Shown: positions 4,115-29,265 of the stretch, piece after piece
How positions within the stretch are numbered: position 1 is the stretch's first letter
Layout: the number at the start of each line of letters is the position of its first letter
DNA from: a virus
Lineage: Duplodnaviria > Heunggongvirae > Uroviricota > Caudoviricetes
Reading direction: 5' to 3' (one strand)
DNA: 33,624 nucleotides
Virus record (IMG/VR): IMGVR_UViG_2531839474_000013
Coordinates: 1-33,624 of that record
The notes under the pieces: generated by a model
Databases searched by the model: none
What the model was told of the DNA's origin: nothing
What the model saw: the letters and a program-made list of their open reading frames with translations, nothing else
Translations under genes and position numbers: made by a program

Positions 4115-4456
4115 TTATTGGCAAAACAACTTATATTTTTCCATACCGCCCGGGTCATGGTCATTAACAATTGTTACAGTTCCATGACTCTTAACTTTTC
4201 CGTCCACAACTTCCAAATAAACAAAATATGGTTTCTTCCCTGTATATCCACCAAACGTGTTTTTTGAATTGACATCTCCACAAACATAGCCATATAAATC
4301 ACCTGACTTATGGAAAAAAGAATTAAACTTTGCACTATCAGGATCAATAAGTTTATCTTTAACTAAGTCTTCCCCTAAAGAAATAACATAATTATCTGAT
4401 GGTTTACATGCACTAATAAAGAATATACAAGCCAATGTCACCACTAAATTTCTCAT
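4115..4456 (-). CDS. putative lipoprotein encoded by an AT-rich moron
   Basis: 113 aa. N-terminus MRNLVVTLACIFFISAC has a signal peptide and lipobox (ISAC). AGGAGG lies 7 nt upstream of the ATG. The segment is visibly AT-rich relative to the flanking tail genes. Confidence 0.7.
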   Translation of the reverse strand: MRNLVVTLACIFFISACKPSDNYVISLGEDLVKDKLIDPDSAKFNSFFHKSGDLYGYVCGDVNSKNTFGGYTGKKPYFVYLEVVDGKVKSHGTVTIVNDHDPGGMEKYKLFCQ

Positions 4457-4826: not shown

Positions 4827-5203
4827 TTAACCTCGCCGGCATCACTGATCAGTTCCAGAGACTGCCGAAGAAGCCGCGCATGCACCGGGCCATACACGGC
4901 AATCACCTGTTCACGATCATCCTCTGAAAATACAGGTTGCAGTCCGGTATCACACAGAACATCAATGAACAGTTCAACATCTGCCTCCAGATTTCGGCGG
5001 GCGCGCTCCGCAACGGATAACGGTGTCTCATCATCTTTTGCTTTAACGATCTCCTGCCAGCGCAACCAGGCTTCTGCAGAAGGTTCCCGTAATACAACCG
5101 TTGCCCCTTCCCATTCAGGCACATCAACAGTTTTATGGCGAAACCCCGACATCGTTGCCAGTGCCAGATTACGGATATTTTTAGTCATCACATCTATCCT
5201 CAT
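4817..5203 (-). CDS. tail assembly chaperone (gpG-like)
   Basis: 128-aa acidic protein directly upstream of the tape measure region; ends ...EVKKK* on the slippery heptamer. Confidence 0.7.
   Translation of the reverse strand: MRIDVMTKNIRNLALATMSGFRHKTVDVPEWEGATVVLREPSAEAWLRWQEIVKAKDDETPLSVAERARRNLEADVELFIDVLCDTGLQPVFSEDDREQVIAVYGPVHARLLRQSLELISDAGEVKKK
4820..4826 (-). promoter_or_regulatory. programmed -1 ribosomal frameshift slippery heptamer (A AAA AAG)
   Basis: Minus-strand GTT AAA AAA AAG TAG at the end of the G-like ORF; the -1 frame continues into the T ORF without a stop. Confidence 0.6.
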
Positions 5204-5907
5204 TAACTGACGGTAACAGTGCAGGAAGTGGAGGTCACCTTGTTAACAGGGCTTGCTGAATCAGAAATCTCGCAGGTATACGCACCGGCATCACCGGATG
5301 CTGCTGATGCCTTACTGAACGTTGCCGCCGTCTGTCCGGAAACAGGAGAACCACCTTTCTTCCAGACATAAGAATAAGGCGGCACACCACCGGCAGCCTC
5401 AACCACCATTTCGAGTTTCGCTCCGGCAGAAACCTGCAGCGTGCTGTTTAAATCGACCTTCACTTTCAGCGGCTCTGTCGTCAGTACAGGTTTACCTTTC
5501 AGGCGCAGGGAAAACGTTGCAGCCACAACACCATTGGTTCCTGCAGACCAGGTATGCTGACGCACCTCTGCCATAAAGGTAAATCCGTTGCCTGACGGAA
5601 AAATAACTTTAAAGCCATACGTGGTGTCATTGTCATAGGCACTGCGCAACGCGTTCTGGGCAGCATTCAGATAAAAGTTGCCTGACATGGAAATCTCTGA
5701 CGCGGCACCAAGACCGTTAATATTTTCCTGCTCAACAGAACACAGCGTGGTGACATCAATATCCTGTTTCTGCCCGGCGGTAAACTGAACCTCTTTAATC
5801 GTACAGCTCAGTTCAAGAAAACTGGCAGAACTCAGCGTTTCTGCCGTTACCGGTGCAGACGAGATCATGACTTTGGTCTGCTGAGAACGTTCAAAATTAG
5901 AGGACAT
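5203..5907 (-). CDS. major tail protein with C-terminal Ig-like domain
   Basis: 234 aa, positioned between the head-tail joining genes and the G/T chaperones; Thr/Ser-rich beta-type C-terminus; AGGAGA ribosome-binding site. Confidence 0.75.
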   Translation of the reverse strand: MSSNFERSQQTKVMISSAPVTAETLSSASFLELSCTIKEVQFTAGQKQDIDVTTLCSVEQENINGLGAASEISMSGNFYLNAAQNALRSAYDNDTTYGFKVIFPSGNGFTFMAEVRQHTWSAGTNGVVAATFSLRLKGKPVLTTEPLKVKVDLNSTLQVSAGAKLEMVVEAAGGVPPYSYVWKKGGSPVSGQTAATFSKASAASGDAGAYTCEISDSASPVNKVTSTSCTVTVS

Positions 5908-5923
5908 ACTCGTCTCCTGAAAA

Positions 5924-5947
5924 TAAAAAAACCCGCCAGCGGCGGGT
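5924..5947 (-). terminator. terminator-like hairpin upstream of the major tail gene
   Basis: Minus strand CCCGCCGCTGGCGGG followed by TTTTTTT, about 17 nt before the major tail ribosome-binding site. Confidence 0.4.
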
Positions 5948-5967
5948 GGGTAAAATCATTAACGATC

Positions 5968-6312
5968 TCAGGCTATTACCTGAAATTCAAGCGTGGCTCT
6001 GCTCAGACGGGAATCAGGATCATAACCCTGCGTTTTAGAAATAACGGAGGGTGCCAGTTGCCTTACCGCATCAAGCGCCTGCTCACGGATATCATCTGCG
6101 TCATCAGGTACTGTCGCCCAGACATCGATCTGCACGGTAATTCTTGATTCAGCCTGACCATCAAGCACATCAGATGCCGTGTCAGAGACCACAGAAAATA
6201 CCAGCCATGGCGGAGATACCGCAGGCTTTCCCTCCGTCAGCGGGACCACATAAGGATAAACCTGTCCTCCGGCCAGTTTAGACAGCAGGGAATACAGTGT
6301 GGTCTCTCTCAT
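5968..6312 (-). CDS. tail completion / terminator-type protein
   Basis: 114 aa at the synteny position between the HK97 gp10-like gene and the major tail gene. Confidence 0.5.
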   Translation of the reverse strand: MRETTLYSLLSKLAGGQVYPYVVPLTEGKPAVSPPWLVFSVVSDTASDVLDGQAESRITVQIDVWATVPDDADDIREQALDAVRQLAPSVISKTQGYDPDSRLSRATLEFQVIA

Positions 6313-6758
6313 TTACTTAAGACCTCATCAATAGCCTGATTCATTCGCTGTATGGCAATCTGTGCTGCCAGTTCCTCTGTCGTATCGAAAGCCGGGCGAA
6401 TGAACGGATGCGCGGGCATGTTTATCGTTCCCAGCTCCACAAAGCGCCAGTAAAACGCATTTCGGGGATCGCTGGCTTTCATGCTGTTATCACTGTTTCC
6501 GGTTCGCAGGTTACGTCCGCGAATGTGGACACCCGAGATAATTTCCCCCCGACGCTTTGAACGCTGAGTGAGAACAACCACATTTTTCTTCAGTTTCCCG
6601 GTTCGCTCCGGCGCACGTTCAACAACTGCATCCCGCATAGCTTCAGCACCGGCACGGGTGGCATCGCGCAGAACCTTATTGTTTTCTGCCCTGCTGAGCG
6701 TCTCCAGATCCCGTGCAATATCCGCCAGACCTGAAAAATCAAGACTGAAATCCATCAC
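6309..6758 (-). CDS. HK97 gp10-family head-tail joining protein
   Basis: 149 aa; position and sequence character match this family; 4-nt overlaps with both neighbours. Confidence 0.65.
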   Translation of the reverse strand: MMDFSLDFSGLADIARDLETLSRAENNKVLRDATRAGAEAMRDAVVERAPERTGKLKKNVVVLTQRSKRRGEIISGVHIRGRNLRTGNSDNSMKASDPRNAFYWRFVELGTINMPAHPFIRPAFDTTEELAAQIAIQRMNQAIDEVLSK

Positions 6759-7419: not shown

Positions 7420-7441
7420 CAGAAACTCCTGCCCGCAACAC

Positions 7442-7465
7442 TGTGCGGGCATAAAAAAACCGCGT
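7442..7465 (-). terminator. intrinsic terminator after the major capsid gene
   Basis: Minus strand ACCGCGCCGACGCGGT followed by TTTTTTT immediately after the capsid stop. Confidence 0.6.
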
Positions 7466-7495
7466 CGGCGCGGTCTGTAACTGAACAACGAGTGG

Positions 7496-14753: not shown

Positions 14754-14829
14754 TTCGTCATCTCTCACCTCGCGATATTTGCGGGTGCTGTGTTGGAAAT
14801 AAAAAGGCCACGCAACGTGGCCACCAGAA

Positions 14830-15882
14830 TTATTTCCCCACCAGTTCACTTACCTCTTTCGCCGTCTGATTAAACCGCTCTGACTCAAGTTCAACACCTA
14901 ACGCCCGACGCCCCAGCGCCATTGCTGCTTTTATTGTGGAACCGGATCCCATAAAGAAATCAGCAACCAGATCACCAGGTCGACTACTGGCATTGATTAT
15001 TTGCCGGAGCATATCCGCCGGTTTCTCGCACGGATGTTTACCCGGGTAGAACTGAACGGGCTTATGCGTCCAGACATCGGTATAAGGCACGGAGACTGAT
15101 ACGGAGAAATAGCGCCGGAGAGATTTAAACTCATCCAGCAATTCAGAATATTTGCGATTCAGTGAATCATAAGATGCCACCAGCTGGTGGTGTGGTTGTT
15201 CCAGTTGTTGTTCCTGAAACTTCTCTGCCGCTATACGGGAAAACAGTGCCTGTAACTTCCGATAGTCAGCCTCATTCGGCAACTGCCACTGACTGGCACC
15301 AAACCAGTGGGAAACCATATTTTTCTTACCTGTGGCTTCGGCAATTTGTTTTGCCGTTATACCCAGTTCGGCACGAGCATCCCTGAAATACGATATCAGC
15401 GGTGCCATTATGTGCTGTTTGAGTTCCCTTTCTTTTGCCGCATAGCCGTCACTTTTGGGCTGATATGGTCCCTGATAATGTTCAGCAAACAGAATGCGTT
15501 CTGTTGCCGGGAAATACGCCCGCAGGCTTTCCTTGTTACACCCGTTCCAGCGCCCGGACGGTTTCGCCCAGATAATGTGATTCAGCACATTAAAGCGTTC
15601 ACGCATCATGATTTCGGTGTCAGATGCCAGGCGATGACCACAGAACAGGTAGAGACTTCCGGCAGGTTTCAGTACCCGCCAGAATTGCGCCAGACACTGA
15701 TCCAGCCATTTCAGGTAATCATCGTCGCCCTTCCACTGGTTATCCCAGCCCTCGGGCTTCACTTTAAAGTATGGCGGGTCTGTGACTATCAGATCGACAG
15801 AGTTTTCCGGTAAGGTCTGGATAAATTCCAGGCAATCAGCGTTGATTAACTCACAACTGGATATTTTTACAGTATTAACCAT
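14830..15882 (-). CDS. DNA N6-adenine/N4-cytosine methyltransferase, beta class, orphan
   Basis: N-terminal DPPY motif (VTDPPYF) and C-terminal FxGxG motif (FFMGSGST); no adjacent restriction endonuclease gene. Confidence 0.85.
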   Translation of the reverse strand: MVNTVKISSCELINADCLEFIQTLPENSVDLIVTDPPYFKVKPEGWDNQWKGDDDYLKWLDQCLAQFWRVLKPAGSLYLFCGHRLASDTEIMMRERFNVLNHIIWAKPSGRWNGCNKESLRAYFPATERILFAEHYQGPYQPKSDGYAAKERELKQHIMAPLISYFRDARAELGITAKQIAEATGKKNMVSHWFGASQWQLPNEADYRKLQALFSRIAAEKFQEQQLEQPHHQLVASYDSLNRKYSELLDEFKSLRRYFSVSVSVPYTDVWTHKPVQFYPGKHPCEKPADMLRQIINASSRPGDLVADFFMGSGSTIKAAMALGRRALGVELESERFNQTAKEVSELVGK

Positions 15883-16353: not shown

Positions 16354-16381
16354 AAAAAAACCCGCAAAAAGCGGGCTCTTT
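16354..16381 (-). terminator. intrinsic terminator downstream of the Q-like gene (tR'-like position)
   Basis: Minus strand GCCCGCTTTTTGCGGGT followed by TTTTTTT, about 75 nt downstream of the Q-like stop. Confidence 0.6.
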
Positions 16382-16454: not shown

Positions 16455-17021
16455 TCAAAAAGCAATAACTTTTTTCTCTATACCAAAAGCCATAACCATT
16501 GGTTTGTACAAAATAAATTCTGCCACCTTTAGCCAATGCTCAATGCGTCTTTCACAGGTTCTTAAACTCCATTCCGGATGTGCATCATTCAGCAGTTCAG
16601 CCATTTTGCGCTTAGTCATCCCCCGCTCCACATAACGCTGACTCAGAACATTGAGCAGCCCGGGATAACCTGCCAGTACTTCACCAATAACCCTGTCGAT
16701 TATTAACGCCTCTGAATCGGTACAATGTGCCAGCCAGCTTTTTTGATTGCCGTTGATCATATCCCGCAAAAAAGCCTCAAGTTCAGGTTTGTCCAGACCC
16801 GCTTTTTTCATCCTCCGGAGCGCCTCGTTAATTGCCGTTTTTGTCAGCTTTTTAGAGGTCAGTAATTGGTTGAACATATTTCCCGTCTTACCGTCGCCAA
16901 TATACGACCAACGCCCCCACATACGCAGTTTCCCCTGGATCCAGACACTTTCCAGCGTTTTCAGGCGTAAATGCTCACCGCTTTTGCCTGTAATTTCCGG
17001 GTATATCATATTTATGCTCAC
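16455..17021 (-). CDS. putative late-gene regulator (Q-like antiterminator, assigned by position only)
   Basis: 188 aa; lies between rusA and the late terminator/lysis genes, where lambdoid phages carry Q. I could not confirm the family by sequence. Confidence 0.45.
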   Translation of the reverse strand: MSINMIYPEITGKSGEHLRLKTLESVWIQGKLRMWGRWSYIGDGKTGNMFNQLLTSKKLTKTAINEALRRMKKAGLDKPELEAFLRDMINGNQKSWLAHCTDSEALIIDRVIGEVLAGYPGLLNVLSQRYVERGMTKRKMAELLNDAHPEWSLRTCERRIEHWLKVAEFILYKPMVMAFGIEKKVIAF

Positions 17022-22246: not shown

Positions 22247-23134
22247 TCAGGCTGCCAGATCATCGTTTCTGATGGAAGCATAATAAGCTTTTTCTGCTTC
22301 TGCCGGAGGGATATGACCCAGCCTTCCCAGCAATCGTCGATTGTTATACCAGTCCACCCACGTGAGTGTGGCCAGTTCCACTTCTGCACGGTTTTTCCAG
22401 CTCTTACGGTGTATTACCTCCGCTTTGTAAAGACCATTGATGCTCTCCGCCATCGCGTTGTCATACGAGTCACCTGTACTCCCTGTTGATGCCAGCAGTT
22501 TTGCTTCTTTTAGTCGCTCCGTATAGGCCAGTGATACATACTGAGAACCTTTATCACTGTGATGGACTGTGCCGGACGGCCGACGGGCCCACAACGCCTG
22601 CTCCAGTGCATCCAGCACGAATGTCGTTTCCATAGACGATGAGACTCGCCACCCCACGATACATCCGGCAAACACATCAATGATGAACGCCACATAGACG
22701 AAGCCCTGCCATGTGCTGACGTAAGTAAAATCAGCCACCCACAGCTGGTCAGGACGTTCTGCCACGAACTGACGGTTTACGCGGTCGCCTGCGGAAACGG
22801 CTTTCCGGCTGACGGTAGTACGGACCTTTTTACCCCGGAGAACACCGGCAAGTCCCATAACCGCCATGAGGCGCGCCACTGTACATCTGGCCACCCTGAT
22901 ACCTTCGCGTAACAACTGGCGCCAGACTTTACGCACACCGTACACCTGATGATTTTCATCGTATACGCGCTGTATCTCTCTCTTCAGCCAGTCATCGCGC
23001 TGAGCACGGGCACTGCGTTTATCAGGATGATGTCGCTGTTGCTGACAGTGGTAATACGTTGACGGGGCAATATGCAGTTCACTGCATACCGGTCCGACCC
23101 CGTACTGCTCACGCAGCTTATCCAGCAGCGGCAT
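22247..23134 (-). CDS. IS3-family transposase OrfB (DDE catalytic domain)
   Basis: 295 aa with integrase-core-like motifs (ADFTYV, HSDKGSQY, DNAMAES); in the -1 frame relative to orfA. Confidence 0.9.
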   Translation of the reverse strand: MPLLDKLREQYGVGPVCSELHIAPSTYYHCQQQRHHPDKRSARAQRDDWLKREIQRVYDENHQVYGVRKVWRQLLREGIRVARCTVARLMAVMGLAGVLRGKKVRTTVSRKAVSAGDRVNRQFVAERPDQLWVADFTYVSTWQGFVYVAFIIDVFAGCIVGWRVSSSMETTFVLDALEQALWARRPSGTVHHSDKGSQYVSLAYTERLKEAKLLASTGSTGDSYDNAMAESINGLYKAEVIHRKSWKNRAEVELATLTWVDWYNNRRLLGRLGHIPPAEAEKAYYASIRNDDLAA

Positions 23135-23460
23135 TATTTTTTCCAGAGGCGGTCGAACTCCGCCTTCGCAAAATAAGCGGAAGCCTGGCGAAGGATATCG
23201 TTACTGCGGCGCAGTTCACGATTTTCACGTTCCAGCTCTTTCAGACGCTGACGTTCAGCGGTGGTGAGTCCACCATCACCACTCCCGGTATCCCGCTCAT
23301 GCTGACGAACCCACACACGCAGAGTCTCTGGTGTACAGCCAATCTTTGGGGCAATGGAACAAATTGCCGCCCATTGTGAGTCATATTCGCCCTGACTTTC
23401 CAGAACCATACGAACTGCCCGTTGACGGACCTCGGGGGAAAAACGTGTATTTTTAGTCAT
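23134..23460 (-). CDS. IS3-family transposase OrfA (HTH domain)
   Basis: 108 aa with HTH and leucine-zipper-like C-terminus; ends TGG AAA AAA TAA, where orfB continues in the -1 frame. Confidence 0.9.
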
Positions 23461-28704: not shown

Positions 28705-29265
28705 TTCATCCTCCTGAGGGTTAGTAATTAAGGAGTTCTCCACGGGTGAGGTGGAGTGCGTGCGCCGGACACGGGTGAGCATCCGGCACTGACAGTTTAC
28801 TGAAAGGATATCTCCCTGAAAAGTCAGGGCATAACGCGAAAGCGCACGGCGAAGTTGTTGGTTCATAGATAGCCTGTCGTTAAATTTTCGTCGACCGTGC
28901 GCTTCCGGTTGTGGCACTCCGCGAAATGGCGCGGCGGTAAGTATGGCGGGGTTATTCCTTCCCCGTTGAGGACACCGGGTTGTCAGGTTGACCATACGCT
29001 TAAGTGACAACCCCGCTGCAACGCCCTCTGTTATCAATTTTCTGGTGACGTTTGGCGGTATCAGTTTTACTCCGTGACTGCTCTGCCGCCCTTTTTAAAG
29101 TGAATTTTGTGATGCGGTGAATGCGGCTAAGCGCACGAGGAACAGTTAAAACCAAAAACAGTGTTATGGGTGGATTCTCTGTATCCGGCGTTAATTGTTA
29201 ACTGGTTAACGTCACCTGGAGGCACCAGGCACTGCATCACAAAATTCATTGTTGAGGACGCGATA

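What the first reader, a model, noticed from the sequence alone, without database searches (positions are those of the whole stretch)
5908..5967. Terminator-like hairpin immediately upstream of the major tail gene
A GC stem followed by a U-run on the coding strand lies between the tail completion gene and the major tail gene. It could be a partial terminator that sets transcript ratios, or a stabilising 5' stem-loop for the highly expressed major tail mRNA.
Basis: seen in the sequence. Interest (0 to 1): 0.2.

Follow-up and report, generated by a model that had tools for sequence, protein, structure and literature searches.

The report
Conserved terminator hairpin before tail-tube gene
The hairpin is real and is a textbook factor-independent transcription terminator sitting just before the tail-tube gene of an HK97-like E. 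coli prophage; the same element is already annotated as a putative terminator in phage HK97, so it is ordinary, and only its exact role is still untested.

Summary
Confirmed. On the coding (-) strand, the 60-nt gap between the tail-terminator/completion gene (5968-6312) and the major tail protein gene (5203-5907) holds a 7-bp GC-rich stem with a 3-nt loop (5947-5931). It is followed directly by U7AU4, then the Shine-Dalgarno (SD) sequence AGGAG and the ATG. A site of this quality is expected about 0.1 times per shuffled strand.

The window is a lambdoid, HK97-like E. coli prophage with a Q-like antiterminator. Upstream of 98 distinct homologous tail-tube genes, 94 carry a called hairpin plus U-run at the same place, 18-25 nt before the ATG. 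The other four carry weakened versions. It is also present in HK97, HK542, a Vibrio phage and Burkholderia phiE125, where protein identity falls to 39%. Pairing is kept in 93.5% of cells, and the basal pair switches among C-G, A-U and G-C.

The HK97 and HK542 GenBank records already annotate a (putative) rho-independent terminator at exactly this position, so the element is known.

Most likely it stops RNA polymerase that lacks Q and is read through by Q-modified polymerase. The hairpin and U-tract then form part of the tail-tube gene's translation-initiation region. A role in setting transcript ratios fits poorly with virion protein copy numbers. No 3'-end data were available. Interest is low.

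The parts
5931..5947 (-). Terminator stem-loop: 5' arm 5947-5941 (ACCCGCC), loop 5940-5938 (GCU), 3' arm 5937-5931 (GGCGGGU)
   Evidence: Sequence. Scans (dG -12.0). Shuffle control. Conserved in 94-98 of 98 distinct homologous upstream regions. 93.5% of cells paired, with CG/AU/GC at the basal pair.
5920..5930 (-). U-tract directly after the stem (with U5931: U7 A U4), running up to the Shine-Dalgarno sequence
   Evidence: Sequence. Three T columns right after the stem are invariant or nearly so across 73 sequences. Run length varies from 5 to 9 among close relatives.
5948..5967 (-). 20-nt spacer between the upstream stop codon and the hairpin; sequence not conserved, G-poor
   Evidence: Spacer length is 13-25 nt in nearly all relatives. 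8-9% G against 28% on the same strand of the loci overall.
5914..5918 (-). Shine-Dalgarno AGGAG of the major tail protein gene, 6 nt before the ATG
   Evidence: Sequence. GGAG is conserved in the alignment.
5203..5907 (-). Major tail (tube) protein gene, 234 aa, with a C-terminal Ig-like domain; true start at 5907
   Evidence: phrog_158 E 8.6e-109; Pfam Ig_2/Ig_3. 71.5% identical to HK97 gp12.
5968..6312 (-). Tail terminator / tail completion gene (HK97 gp11-like), 114 aa
   Evidence: PF11367 E 2.7e-11; phrog_347 and phrog_78 'tail terminator'.
7458..7475 (-). Second terminator-like hairpin (GACCGCG-CCGA-CGCGGUU + U-run), 20 nt after the major capsid gene stop. Together with the finding it brackets the four neck genes.
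   Evidence: An equivalent hairpin follows the capsid-like ORF in 45 of 84 representative loci. Annotated as a terminator in HK97 and HK542.
16360..16376 (-). tR'-like terminator, about 80 nt downstream of the Q-like gene
16455..17021 (-). Q-like late antiterminator gene
   Evidence: phrog_753 'anti-termination protein Q-like', E 5.8e-81.
14806..14822 (-). Further terminator-like hairpin in the late transcription unit, after a DNA methyltransferase gene and before the holin

Best explanation
The gap holds a canonical Rho-independent (intrinsic) terminator on the late-operon strand. It is the orthologue of the 'putative terminator' annotated between genes 11 and 12 of phage HK97.

How it likely works:
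- As RNA polymerase leaves the tail-terminator gene, the nascent GC-rich hairpin forms about 20 nt past the stop codon, just clear of the terminating ribosome (inferred).
- Together with the weak rU-dA hybrid of the U-tract, it releases any polymerase that is not Q-modified (inferred).
- The tail genes are therefore transcribed only by polymerase that was loaded with Q at the late promoter. That polymerase reads through this site, as it does the tR'-like site and the post-capsid hairpin (inferred).
- In the read-through mRNA the hairpin still forms, 12 nt upstream of the Shine-Dalgarno sequence. With the unstructured U-rich tract it probably keeps the tail-tube ribosome-binding site open and shielded from upstream RNA and RNases. 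That would explain why it is locked to the tail-tube gene's start (inferred).

Shown here: the structure, its statistical significance, its orientation, its conservation and its geometry. Also shown: the Q-like gene, and the existing annotation of the orthologue.
For: - Canonical anatomy, and strength far above the shuffle expectation.
- Found only on the coding strand, between two co-oriented genes.
- Present upstream of essentially every homologue of this tail-tube gene examined. 22 of 22 loci from species-representative genomes, spanning about a dozen genera, carry it. So do 94 of 98 distinct upstream regions from 263 loci, with weakened stems in the other 4.
- Also present in HK97, HK542, Vibrio phage Pm34 and Burkholderia phiE125, down to 39% protein identity.
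- Loops and flanks vary freely while the stem pairs in 93.5% of cells. The basal pair is CG 42 / AU 15 / GC 8. No shuffle of 500 reaches the observed covariation score, and slid partners drop to 36-57% paired. The Vibrio stem is CCACC/GGUGG instead of CCGCC/GGCGG.
- The U-run always abuts the stem.
- Stop-to-stem distance is 13-25 nt, and U-tract-to-ATG distance is 18-25 nt.
- The HK97 record annotates 'terminator, putative' at 6692-6719, between the tail terminator and the major tail subunit. HK542 annotates 'rho-independent terminator' at the same place.
- A Q-like antiterminator and a tR'-like terminator are present in the window.
- Lambdoid late transcription by antitermination is summarised in PMC7547250.
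Against: - No RNA 3'-end, 5'-end or abundance data for this phage or any relative were available, so neither termination nor read-through is demonstrated.
- The four inner stem pairs (CCGC/GCGG) are almost invariant. They therefore say nothing for or against pairing and could reflect common descent.
- Insulating tail genes from Q-independent transcription seems a weak selective reason for roughly 100% occupancy, when the post-capsid hairpin is kept in only about half of the loci.
- phiE125 keeps the hairpin but has no annotated Q homologue. This is inconclusive, because many of its genes are hypothetical.
Confidence: 0.55

Rival explanations
1. The selected function is at the RNA level rather than termination. 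The hairpin would be a barrier or stabiliser at the 5' side of the tail-tube cistron, acting against RNase E scanning or after processing. The U-rich tract would be a ribosome (S1 / standby) landing platform that gives the tail-tube gene its very high translation. On this view the terminator-like look is incidental or secondary.
For: - The element is locked to the tail-tube start codon at 18-25 nt in 94 representatives.
- BLAST-detectable similarity to the O157/Stx-phage lineage starts exactly at the 5' base of the stem and runs into the gene.
- It is kept at about 100% occupancy although Q should override termination.
- In L099 a roughly 760-nt insertion carrying an extra gene separates the tail-terminator gene (which keeps its own hairpin) from the tail-tube gene. 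A second hairpin plus U-run still sits at the normal distance from the SD.
- The region between stem and SD is U-rich throughout.
Against: - The U-run directly abutting a short GC stem is the specific signature of intrinsic termination. A stability hairpin or an S1 site does not require it.
- In a compact phage genome, the minimal layout of terminator followed by ribosome-binding site gives the same spacing.
- No promoter-like site or evidence of a processing site lies just upstream.
- The L099 arrangement is also what a standard moron (gene plus its own terminator) inserted at this spot would produce.
Confidence: 0.2
2. It is a leaky terminator (attenuator) that works during lytic growth. It would reduce transcription of the whole tail gene block relative to the head and neck genes, and so set transcript ratios.
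For: - Canonical terminator anatomy.
- Antitermination is never complete, so several terminators in series (16376, 14822, 7475, 5947) would create a descending gradient along the operon.
- The hairpin persists in phiE125, where no Q is annotated.
- Delimiting late gene clusters with stem-loop terminators is described for SPP1 (PMC6316719).
Against: - From established virion stoichiometry, the gene immediately downstream needs on the order of 200 copies per virion. The four genes immediately upstream need 6-12.
- A terminator here shifts the ratio the wrong way for the tail-tube gene.
- A Q-like antiterminator is present.
- No hairpin follows the tail-tube gene (2 of 93), which is where attenuation of the low-copy tail genes would make sense.
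Confidence: 0.15
3. The terminator marks the 3' end of a small regulatory RNA. The RNA would be derived from the 3' end of the tail-terminator gene mRNA or from a promoter inside that gene, like other Hfq-bound prophage sRNAs that end at intrinsic terminators.
For: - EHEC prophages encode late-region sRNAs that end at intrinsic terminators (StxS, PMC7547250; HnrS, PMC13502914).
- In the E. coli lineage an AUUUUA motif precedes the hairpin.
- There are sub-threshold Rfam matches to Hfq-binding sRNAs (isrK 19.6 bits against a gathering score of 50).
Against: - The Rfam matches rest on the terminator hairpin only (alignment).
- The spacer, where a seed would lie, is not conserved between lineages.
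- There is no promoter-like site on the - strand nearby.
- The position of HnrS could not be established, and the expected CUUCU complement to the hha RBS is absent from the phage 2851 spacer.
Confidence: 0.03
4. It is a chance inverted repeat next to a T-run, with no function.
For: The simple consensus scan finds 28 terminator-like sites against 20.5 expected, so weak sites are common.
Against: - A site of this strength is expected about 0.1 times per strand.
- It is conserved in position and structure across phages of Enterobacterales, Vibrio and Burkholderia, while the flanks and loop diverge.
Confidence: 0.02

Closest known systems
HK97 'putative terminator' at 6692-6719, between gene 11 (tail terminator) and gene 12 (major tail subunit), NC_002167
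   Same: - Same flanking genes, with the tail-tube protein 71.5% identical.
- Same layout and nearly the same sequence: ACCCGCC-AGAU-GGCGGGU, UUUCUUUUU, CC, AGGAGAC, ATG.
- Same companion hairpin after the major capsid gene.
   Different: - Loop of 4 nt instead of 3, and a U-tract interrupted by C.
- HK97 also has a T-less hairpin after gene 12 that the window lacks.
- Like the window's element, it is a prediction. I found no functional test.
HK542 (HK022-like) 'rho-independent terminator' at 6642-6664, before the major tail subunit, JQ086373
   Same: Same position and geometry, with terminators also annotated after the capsid gene.
   Different: - Tail-tube protein only 51% identical and lacking the Ig domain.
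- Stem is GACCGC/GCGGUC.
- A third terminator directly follows the tail-tube gene.
Lambda-type Q antitermination, with tR' and downstream terminators
   Same: A Q-like gene is followed about 80 nt later by a strong terminator, then by a long single-strand late operon with further terminators. The expected behaviour is termination without Q and read-through with Q (PMC7547250).
   Different: From memory, lambda itself has no hairpin between U and V. This was not checked here. The qut site and late promoter were not identified in the window.
Stem-loop terminators delimiting late gene clusters in siphophage SPP1
   Same: Predicted Rho-independent stem-loops lie in intergenic gaps of the late structural gene region (PMC6316719).
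   Different: Unrelated sequences, a Gram-positive host and no Q-type antitermination. These are also untested predictions.
5' stabilising stem-loops and U-rich S1-dependent translational enhancers (ompA-type leaders; own knowledge)
   Same: A stable hairpin followed by an unstructured U-rich stretch just upstream of a strong SD of a highly expressed gene.
   Different: Those act at or near a defined mRNA 5' end. No 5' end is known here, and the U-run abuts the stem as in a terminator.

Membership tests
Rho-independent (intrinsic) terminator | Short GC-rich stem (about 5-12 bp) with a small loop | tested here: met
   7 bp, 6 of them G-C, loop 3 nt, dG -12.0 kcal/mol. Median -11.3 in relatives.
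Rho-independent (intrinsic) terminator | U-rich tract of about 8 nt starting immediately after the stem, on the transcribed strand | tested here: met
   U7AU4 directly after the stem on the - strand. There is no U-run on the + strand. The T columns after the stem are invariant or nearly so in 73 sequences.
Rho-independent (intrinsic) terminator | Lies downstream of a co-oriented gene, far enough from the stop codon for the hairpin to fold | tested here: met
   20 nt after the TGA of the tail-terminator gene. 13-25 nt in nearly all relatives.
Rho-independent (intrinsic) terminator | Base pairing maintained in evolution, with compensatory change | tested here: met
   93.5% of cells paired. Basal pair CG/AU/GC, with 0 of 500 shuffles reaching the covariation score. 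The Vibrio orthologue has CCACC/GGUGG. The four inner pairs are invariant and so uninformative.
Rho-independent (intrinsic) terminator | RNA 3' ends in the U-tract, or termination in vitro or in a reporter | not testable with these tools
   No RNA data. Public Term-seq of EHEC Sakai, which carries orthologous sites, exists (PMC7547250), but it cannot be read here.
Orthologue of the HK97 gene 11/12 putative terminator | Same flanking genes and alignable hairpin / U-tract / SD | tested here: met
   compared.
Q-antiterminated lambdoid late operon | Q-family antiterminator gene upstream on the same strand | tested here: met
   phrog_753, E 5.8e-81, at 16455-17021. The Evi annotation agrees.
Q-antiterminated lambdoid late operon | Late promoter with a Q-utilisation site, followed by a terminator (tR') | tested here: inconclusive
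   A strong terminator lies at 16376-16360, about 80 nt after Q. The promoter and qut site were not identified.
Q-antiterminated lambdoid late operon | Read-through of downstream terminators by Q-modified polymerase | not testable with these tools
   Needs transcription assays.
5' stabilising stem-loop of an mRNA | Hairpin within a few nt of a primary or processed 5' end | tested here: inconclusive
   No promoter-like site on the - strand near 5950-6100. Processing sites cannot be predicted.
Hfq-type small RNA ending at this terminator | Own promoter or processing site, plus a conserved seed upstream of the terminator | tested here: not met
   The spacer is not conserved and no promoter was found. 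Rfam hits lie far below gathering scores and are confined to the hairpin.

The most novel reading that the evidence does not exclude
The hairpin plus U-tract may be kept not for termination but as a portable expression cassette of the tail-tube gene. It would combine a structural barrier with a U-rich ribosome landing pad at a fixed distance from the SD. This cassette would set the very high tail-tube output independently of the upstream neck genes. That would explain near-100% occupancy in an operon where Q makes terminators irrelevant. It would also explain why the element stays next to the gene when a moron is inserted upstream (L099).
Probability: 0.2. Interest if true: 0.4.

Novelty: already known. 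Interest (0 to 1): 0.18.

Why it matters
The practical value is limited.

- **Gene start:** the result fixes the true start of the tail-tube gene at 5907. It flags the 251-aa N-terminally extended models in databases as artefacts of the 6-T variant.
- **An untested prediction:** the 'putative terminator' annotated in HK97 turns out to be one of the most stably conserved non-coding features of the HK97-type tail module, from E. coli to Burkholderia phages. That makes it a clean and cheap test case for an old, unanswered question: why do antiterminated late operons keep strong internal terminators?
- **A data set to check:** a public Term-seq data set that could answer part of that question already exists for EHEC Sakai prophages.

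Tried and rejected
- **Rfam.** At gathering thresholds over the whole window, Rfam finds only the ALIL pseudoknot and DicF elsewhere. Permissive searches around the site give only sub-threshold hits to terminator-containing RNAs (isrK, P9, Trp leader, anti-hemB, isrD). Their alignments rest on the hairpin alone. Rejected.
- **HnrS (EcOnc10-12).** I asked whether this EHEC prophage sRNA, described as lying 'within the late genes', ends at the orthologous hairpin. The papers give no coordinates or sequence, and no supplements are held. The phage 2851 spacer lacks the expected CUUCU complement to the hha RBS. Left as unlikely.
- **Outer helix.** The single-sequence fold pairs the upstream stop-codon region (CCUGA) with UCAGG at the SD. 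RNAalifold on 20 diverse sequences did not recover it. However, MAFFT also misaligned the hairpin arms in that longer alignment, so the run was uninformative. Not pursued.
- **Mosaic recombination joint.** Similarity to the O157 lineage begins exactly at the stem. But the upstream gene in that lineage has the same length and a similar C-terminus, so it looks homologous and merely more diverged. The boundary therefore reflects constraint rather than a joint.
- **Original HK97/HK022 genome paper.** The paper (doi 10.1006/jmbi.2000.3729) is not held. The GenBank features were used instead.
- **Literature searches.** Searches for functional or transcriptomic work on this site in HK97-like phages found nothing specific.
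- **Q dependence in phiE125.** Its annotation lists no Q, but many of its genes are hypothetical. Inconclusive.

Full report
**What is there.** All genes around the finding lie on the - strand. The reported coordinates, 5908-5967, are exactly the non-coding gap between two genes.

- The upstream gene (5968-6312) encodes a 114-aa protein. It matches Pfam Tail_completion_gp17 and the PHROG 'tail terminator' families.
- The downstream gene (5203-5907) encodes a 234-aa protein. It matches phrog_158 'major tail protein' at E 8.6e-109 and has a C-terminal Ig domain.

Read on the - strand, the gap runs as follows:

- TGA stop codon, then a 20-nt spacer;
- the stem-loop ACCCGCC-GCU-GGCGGGU (5947-5931);
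- seven U, one A, four U, then C;
- AGGAG, 6 nt, and the ATG (5907).

On the + strand no U-run follows the hairpin, so the element is directional.

**Is it more than chance?** The tool's loose consensus scan finds about as many sites as shuffles do (28 against 20.5). It nevertheless ranks this site among the three best.

A stricter scan of my own used a single hairpin abutting a tail with at least 6 T in 8. It gives -12.0 kcal/mol and the best U-tail score in the window. In 30 dinucleotide-preserving shuffles of the strand, sites with dG <= -10 and tail score >= 5 appear 0.1 times per 33.6 kb. Three are observed.

The 76-nt context folds only modestly better than shuffles (z -2.05), because the flanks are unstructured.

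**Genomic context.** The window is a lambdoid E. coli prophage. It is 95-98% identical over this region to phages phi467, Evi and several vB_EcoS isolates. It is 100% identical over 501 bases to the chromosome of E. coli strain EC12. Of 5426 complete E. coli genomes, 897 hold at least 80% of that 501-base query.

The window encodes a Q-like antiterminator (16455-17021, phrog_753, E 5.8e-81). About 80 nt downstream lies a strong terminator (16376-16360), the layout expected of a late promoter region with tR'.

Two more strong terminator-like sites lie on the same strand. One is at 14822-14806, after a methyltransferase gene. The other is at 7475-7458, 20 nt after the major capsid gene. The post-capsid hairpin and the finding together bracket the four low-copy neck genes.

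**Conservation.** I collected loci encoding relatives of the tail-tube protein.

- A scan of one genome per species returned 22 loci. They come from Serratia, Symbiopectobacterium, Klebsiella, Pectobacterium, Leclercia, Kosakonia, Enterobacter, Brenneria and others, at 58-79% protein identity. Every one has a GC hairpin plus T-run just before the SD.
- After adding viral contigs, 263 loci gave 98 distinct upstream regions. A hairpin plus T-run is called in 94 of them. The other four have weakened stems: a C·A mismatch, a 4-bp stem, and one triple mutant.
- The distance from the first tail base to the ATG is 18-25 nt. The distance from the upstream stop codon to the stem is 13-25 nt in nearly all cases.

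In a 73-sequence alignment, the spacer and loop vary freely. Loops include GCU, UUCG, UACG, UCCG, GGAA, GUAA and CAUUGA. The stem, the first U residues and GGAG are conserved.

Counting the seven pairs gives 93.5% of cells paired. The basal pair is C-G in 42 sequences, A-U in 15 and G-C in 8. None of 500 shuffles reaches the covariation score, and sliding the partner drops pairing to 36-57%. The four inner pairs (CCGC/GCGG) are almost invariant, so they say nothing either way.

More distant phages keep the element:

- HK542 (51% identity): GACCGC/GCGGUC.
- Vibrio phage Pm34 (49%): CCACC-UUCG-GGUGG.
- Burkholderia phiE125 (39%): GGCCCGC/GCGGGCC.

**Already annotated.** Phage HK97's major tail subunit gp12 is 71.5% identical to the window's protein.

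The HK97 RefSeq record carries a regulatory feature 'terminator, putative' at 6692-6719, between the tail-terminator gene and gp12. Similar features follow the portal gene, the capsid gene, gp12, the gp15 moron and gene K. The HK97 sequence there is ACCCGCC-AGAU-GGCGGGU UUUCUUUUU CC AGGAGAC … ATG, plainly the same element.

HK542's record annotates 'rho-independent terminator' at the same place and after the capsid gene. The feature is therefore known at the annotation level. I found no paper that tests it, and the original HK97/HK022 genome paper is not held.

**How it most likely works.** The anatomy is that of an intrinsic terminator in every testable respect: a short GC stem, a small loop, a U-run abutting the stem, the coding strand, and a stop-to-stem distance that just clears a terminating ribosome.

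In lambdoid phages, late transcription depends on Q-modified polymerase, which ignores terminators (summarised in PMC7547250).

The best-supported reading is a conditional terminator. It stops polymerase that lacks Q and is read through during Q-driven late transcription.

The hairpin still forms in the read-through mRNA, 12 nt from the SD and followed by an unstructured U-rich stretch. So it probably also shapes the tail-tube gene's translation-initiation region, giving an open RBS and a barrier to upstream RNA or RNases. This second role would account for three observations:

- The spacing to the ATG is fixed.
- Occupancy is near 100%, against 45 of 84 for the post-capsid hairpin and 2 of 93 for a hairpin after the tail-tube gene.
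- In L099, a roughly 760-nt insertion carrying an extra gene sits between the tail-terminator gene and the tail-tube gene. The tail-terminator gene keeps its own hairpin, and a second hairpin plus U-run lies at the normal distance from the SD.

These functional steps are inferred, not shown.

**Rivals.**

- *Leaky attenuator setting transcript ratios in the late phase.* This fits poorly. The gene just downstream is needed in about 200 copies per virion and the four genes upstream in 6-12 (established stoichiometry). Q is present, and no hairpin follows the tail-tube gene, which is where attenuation would make sense.
- *Purely RNA-level element (5' stabiliser or translational enhancer).* This remains possible, at about 0.2. 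It does not explain why the U-run must abut the stem, and no nearby 5' end or promoter is evident.
- *3' end of a small RNA.* Unlikely. The spacer is not conserved, there is no promoter, and the Rfam hits are sub-threshold and confined to the hairpin.
- *Chance.* Excluded by the conservation data.

**Verdict.** The functional suggestions are only partly supported.

The element is a member of a known kind and is already annotated in the model phage, so novelty is 'already known' and interest is low.

A modest open point remains. No one seems to have tested why a strong terminator is so faithfully kept directly before the most abundant tail protein's gene in an antiterminated operon. Public Term-seq data for EHEC Sakai prophages could address it.

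Noticed in passing
window 5905-5959 (- strand); L001 (phage Evi) 5090-5845: Close relatives have 6 T instead of 7 in the U-run. That puts an upstream ATG (window 5959-5957) in frame, and gene callers then extend the tail-tube ORF through the hairpin to 251 aa. Examples are the Evi CDS at 5090-5845 and protein clusters P0002, P0004 and P0007. The T-run varies from 5 to 9 among near-identical prophages, so the frame is not conserved. The 251-aa models look like annotation artefacts, and the true start is 5907.
   Followed up: partly
window 7420-7495 (- strand): After the major capsid gene there is a terminator-like hairpin (7475-7458). It is immediately followed by a second hairpin, GCCCGCA-CAGUGU-UGCGGGC, that abuts the AGGAG of the head-tail adaptor gene. 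A post-capsid hairpin with quite different stems occurs in 45 of 84 related loci.
   Followed up: partly
L099 2150-3003: In an Enterobacter prophage, a roughly 760-nt insertion with a 176-aa ORF (2343-2873) lies between the tail-terminator gene's hairpin and the tail-tube gene. It ends in its own CCCGC-UUCG-GCGGG hairpin plus U-run at the usual distance from the SD. This looks like a moron inserted within or next to the resident terminator.
   Followed up: partly
window 4115-4456 (- strand): A 113-aa ORF with a lipoprotein-type signal (…FISAC…) sits between the tail chaperone genes and the tape-measure gene. This is the same slot as the gp15 moron in HK97. It matches only PHROG families of unknown function (phrog_2320).
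   Followed up: partly
spacers upstream of the hairpin in related loci (e.g. L197, L221; window 5948-5967): The spacer between the stop codon and the hairpin is strongly G-depleted (8-9% G against 28% on the same strand of the loci) and C-rich, across 26 dissimilar spacer types. The Klebsiella lineage carries a (CCAAT)n microsatellite there, with 2 to 5 copies.
   Followed up: partly
window 23063-23179 (- strand): An ALIL pseudoknot (RF01497, 120.9 bits), the frameshift signal of IS3-family transposases, lies across overlapping ORFs 23134-23460 and 22247-23134. This suggests an insertion sequence in the early region of the prophage.
   Followed up: no
window 29040-29091 (+ strand): DicF antisense sRNA (RF00039, 76.7 bits). 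The early region therefore looks Qin/dic-like.
   Followed up: no
window 14806-15882 (- strand): A 350-aa DNA methyltransferase gene lies between the Q/tR' region and the holin. It is followed 8 nt after its stop by a strong terminator-like hairpin (14822-14806). The mechanically listed holin ORF (GTG at 14849) runs over that hairpin, and the PHROG match starts at residue 32, so the real holin start is probably further downstream.
   Followed up: no
L007 and L011, about 80 nt upstream of the tail-tube ATG: Two viral contigs show a partial or complete tandem duplication of the hairpin. L011 has an N at the junction. This could be an assembly artefact or slippage at the inverted repeat.
   Followed up: no
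proteins P0019 (374 aa) and P0099 (294 aa): Database proteins combine the Tail_completion_gp17 and tail-tube domains in one ORF, one of them named 'major tail subunit encoded within prophage CP-933V'. They imply ORF calls that read through the intergenic hairpin. These are probably frame or stop-codon errors rather than real fusions.
   Followed up: no
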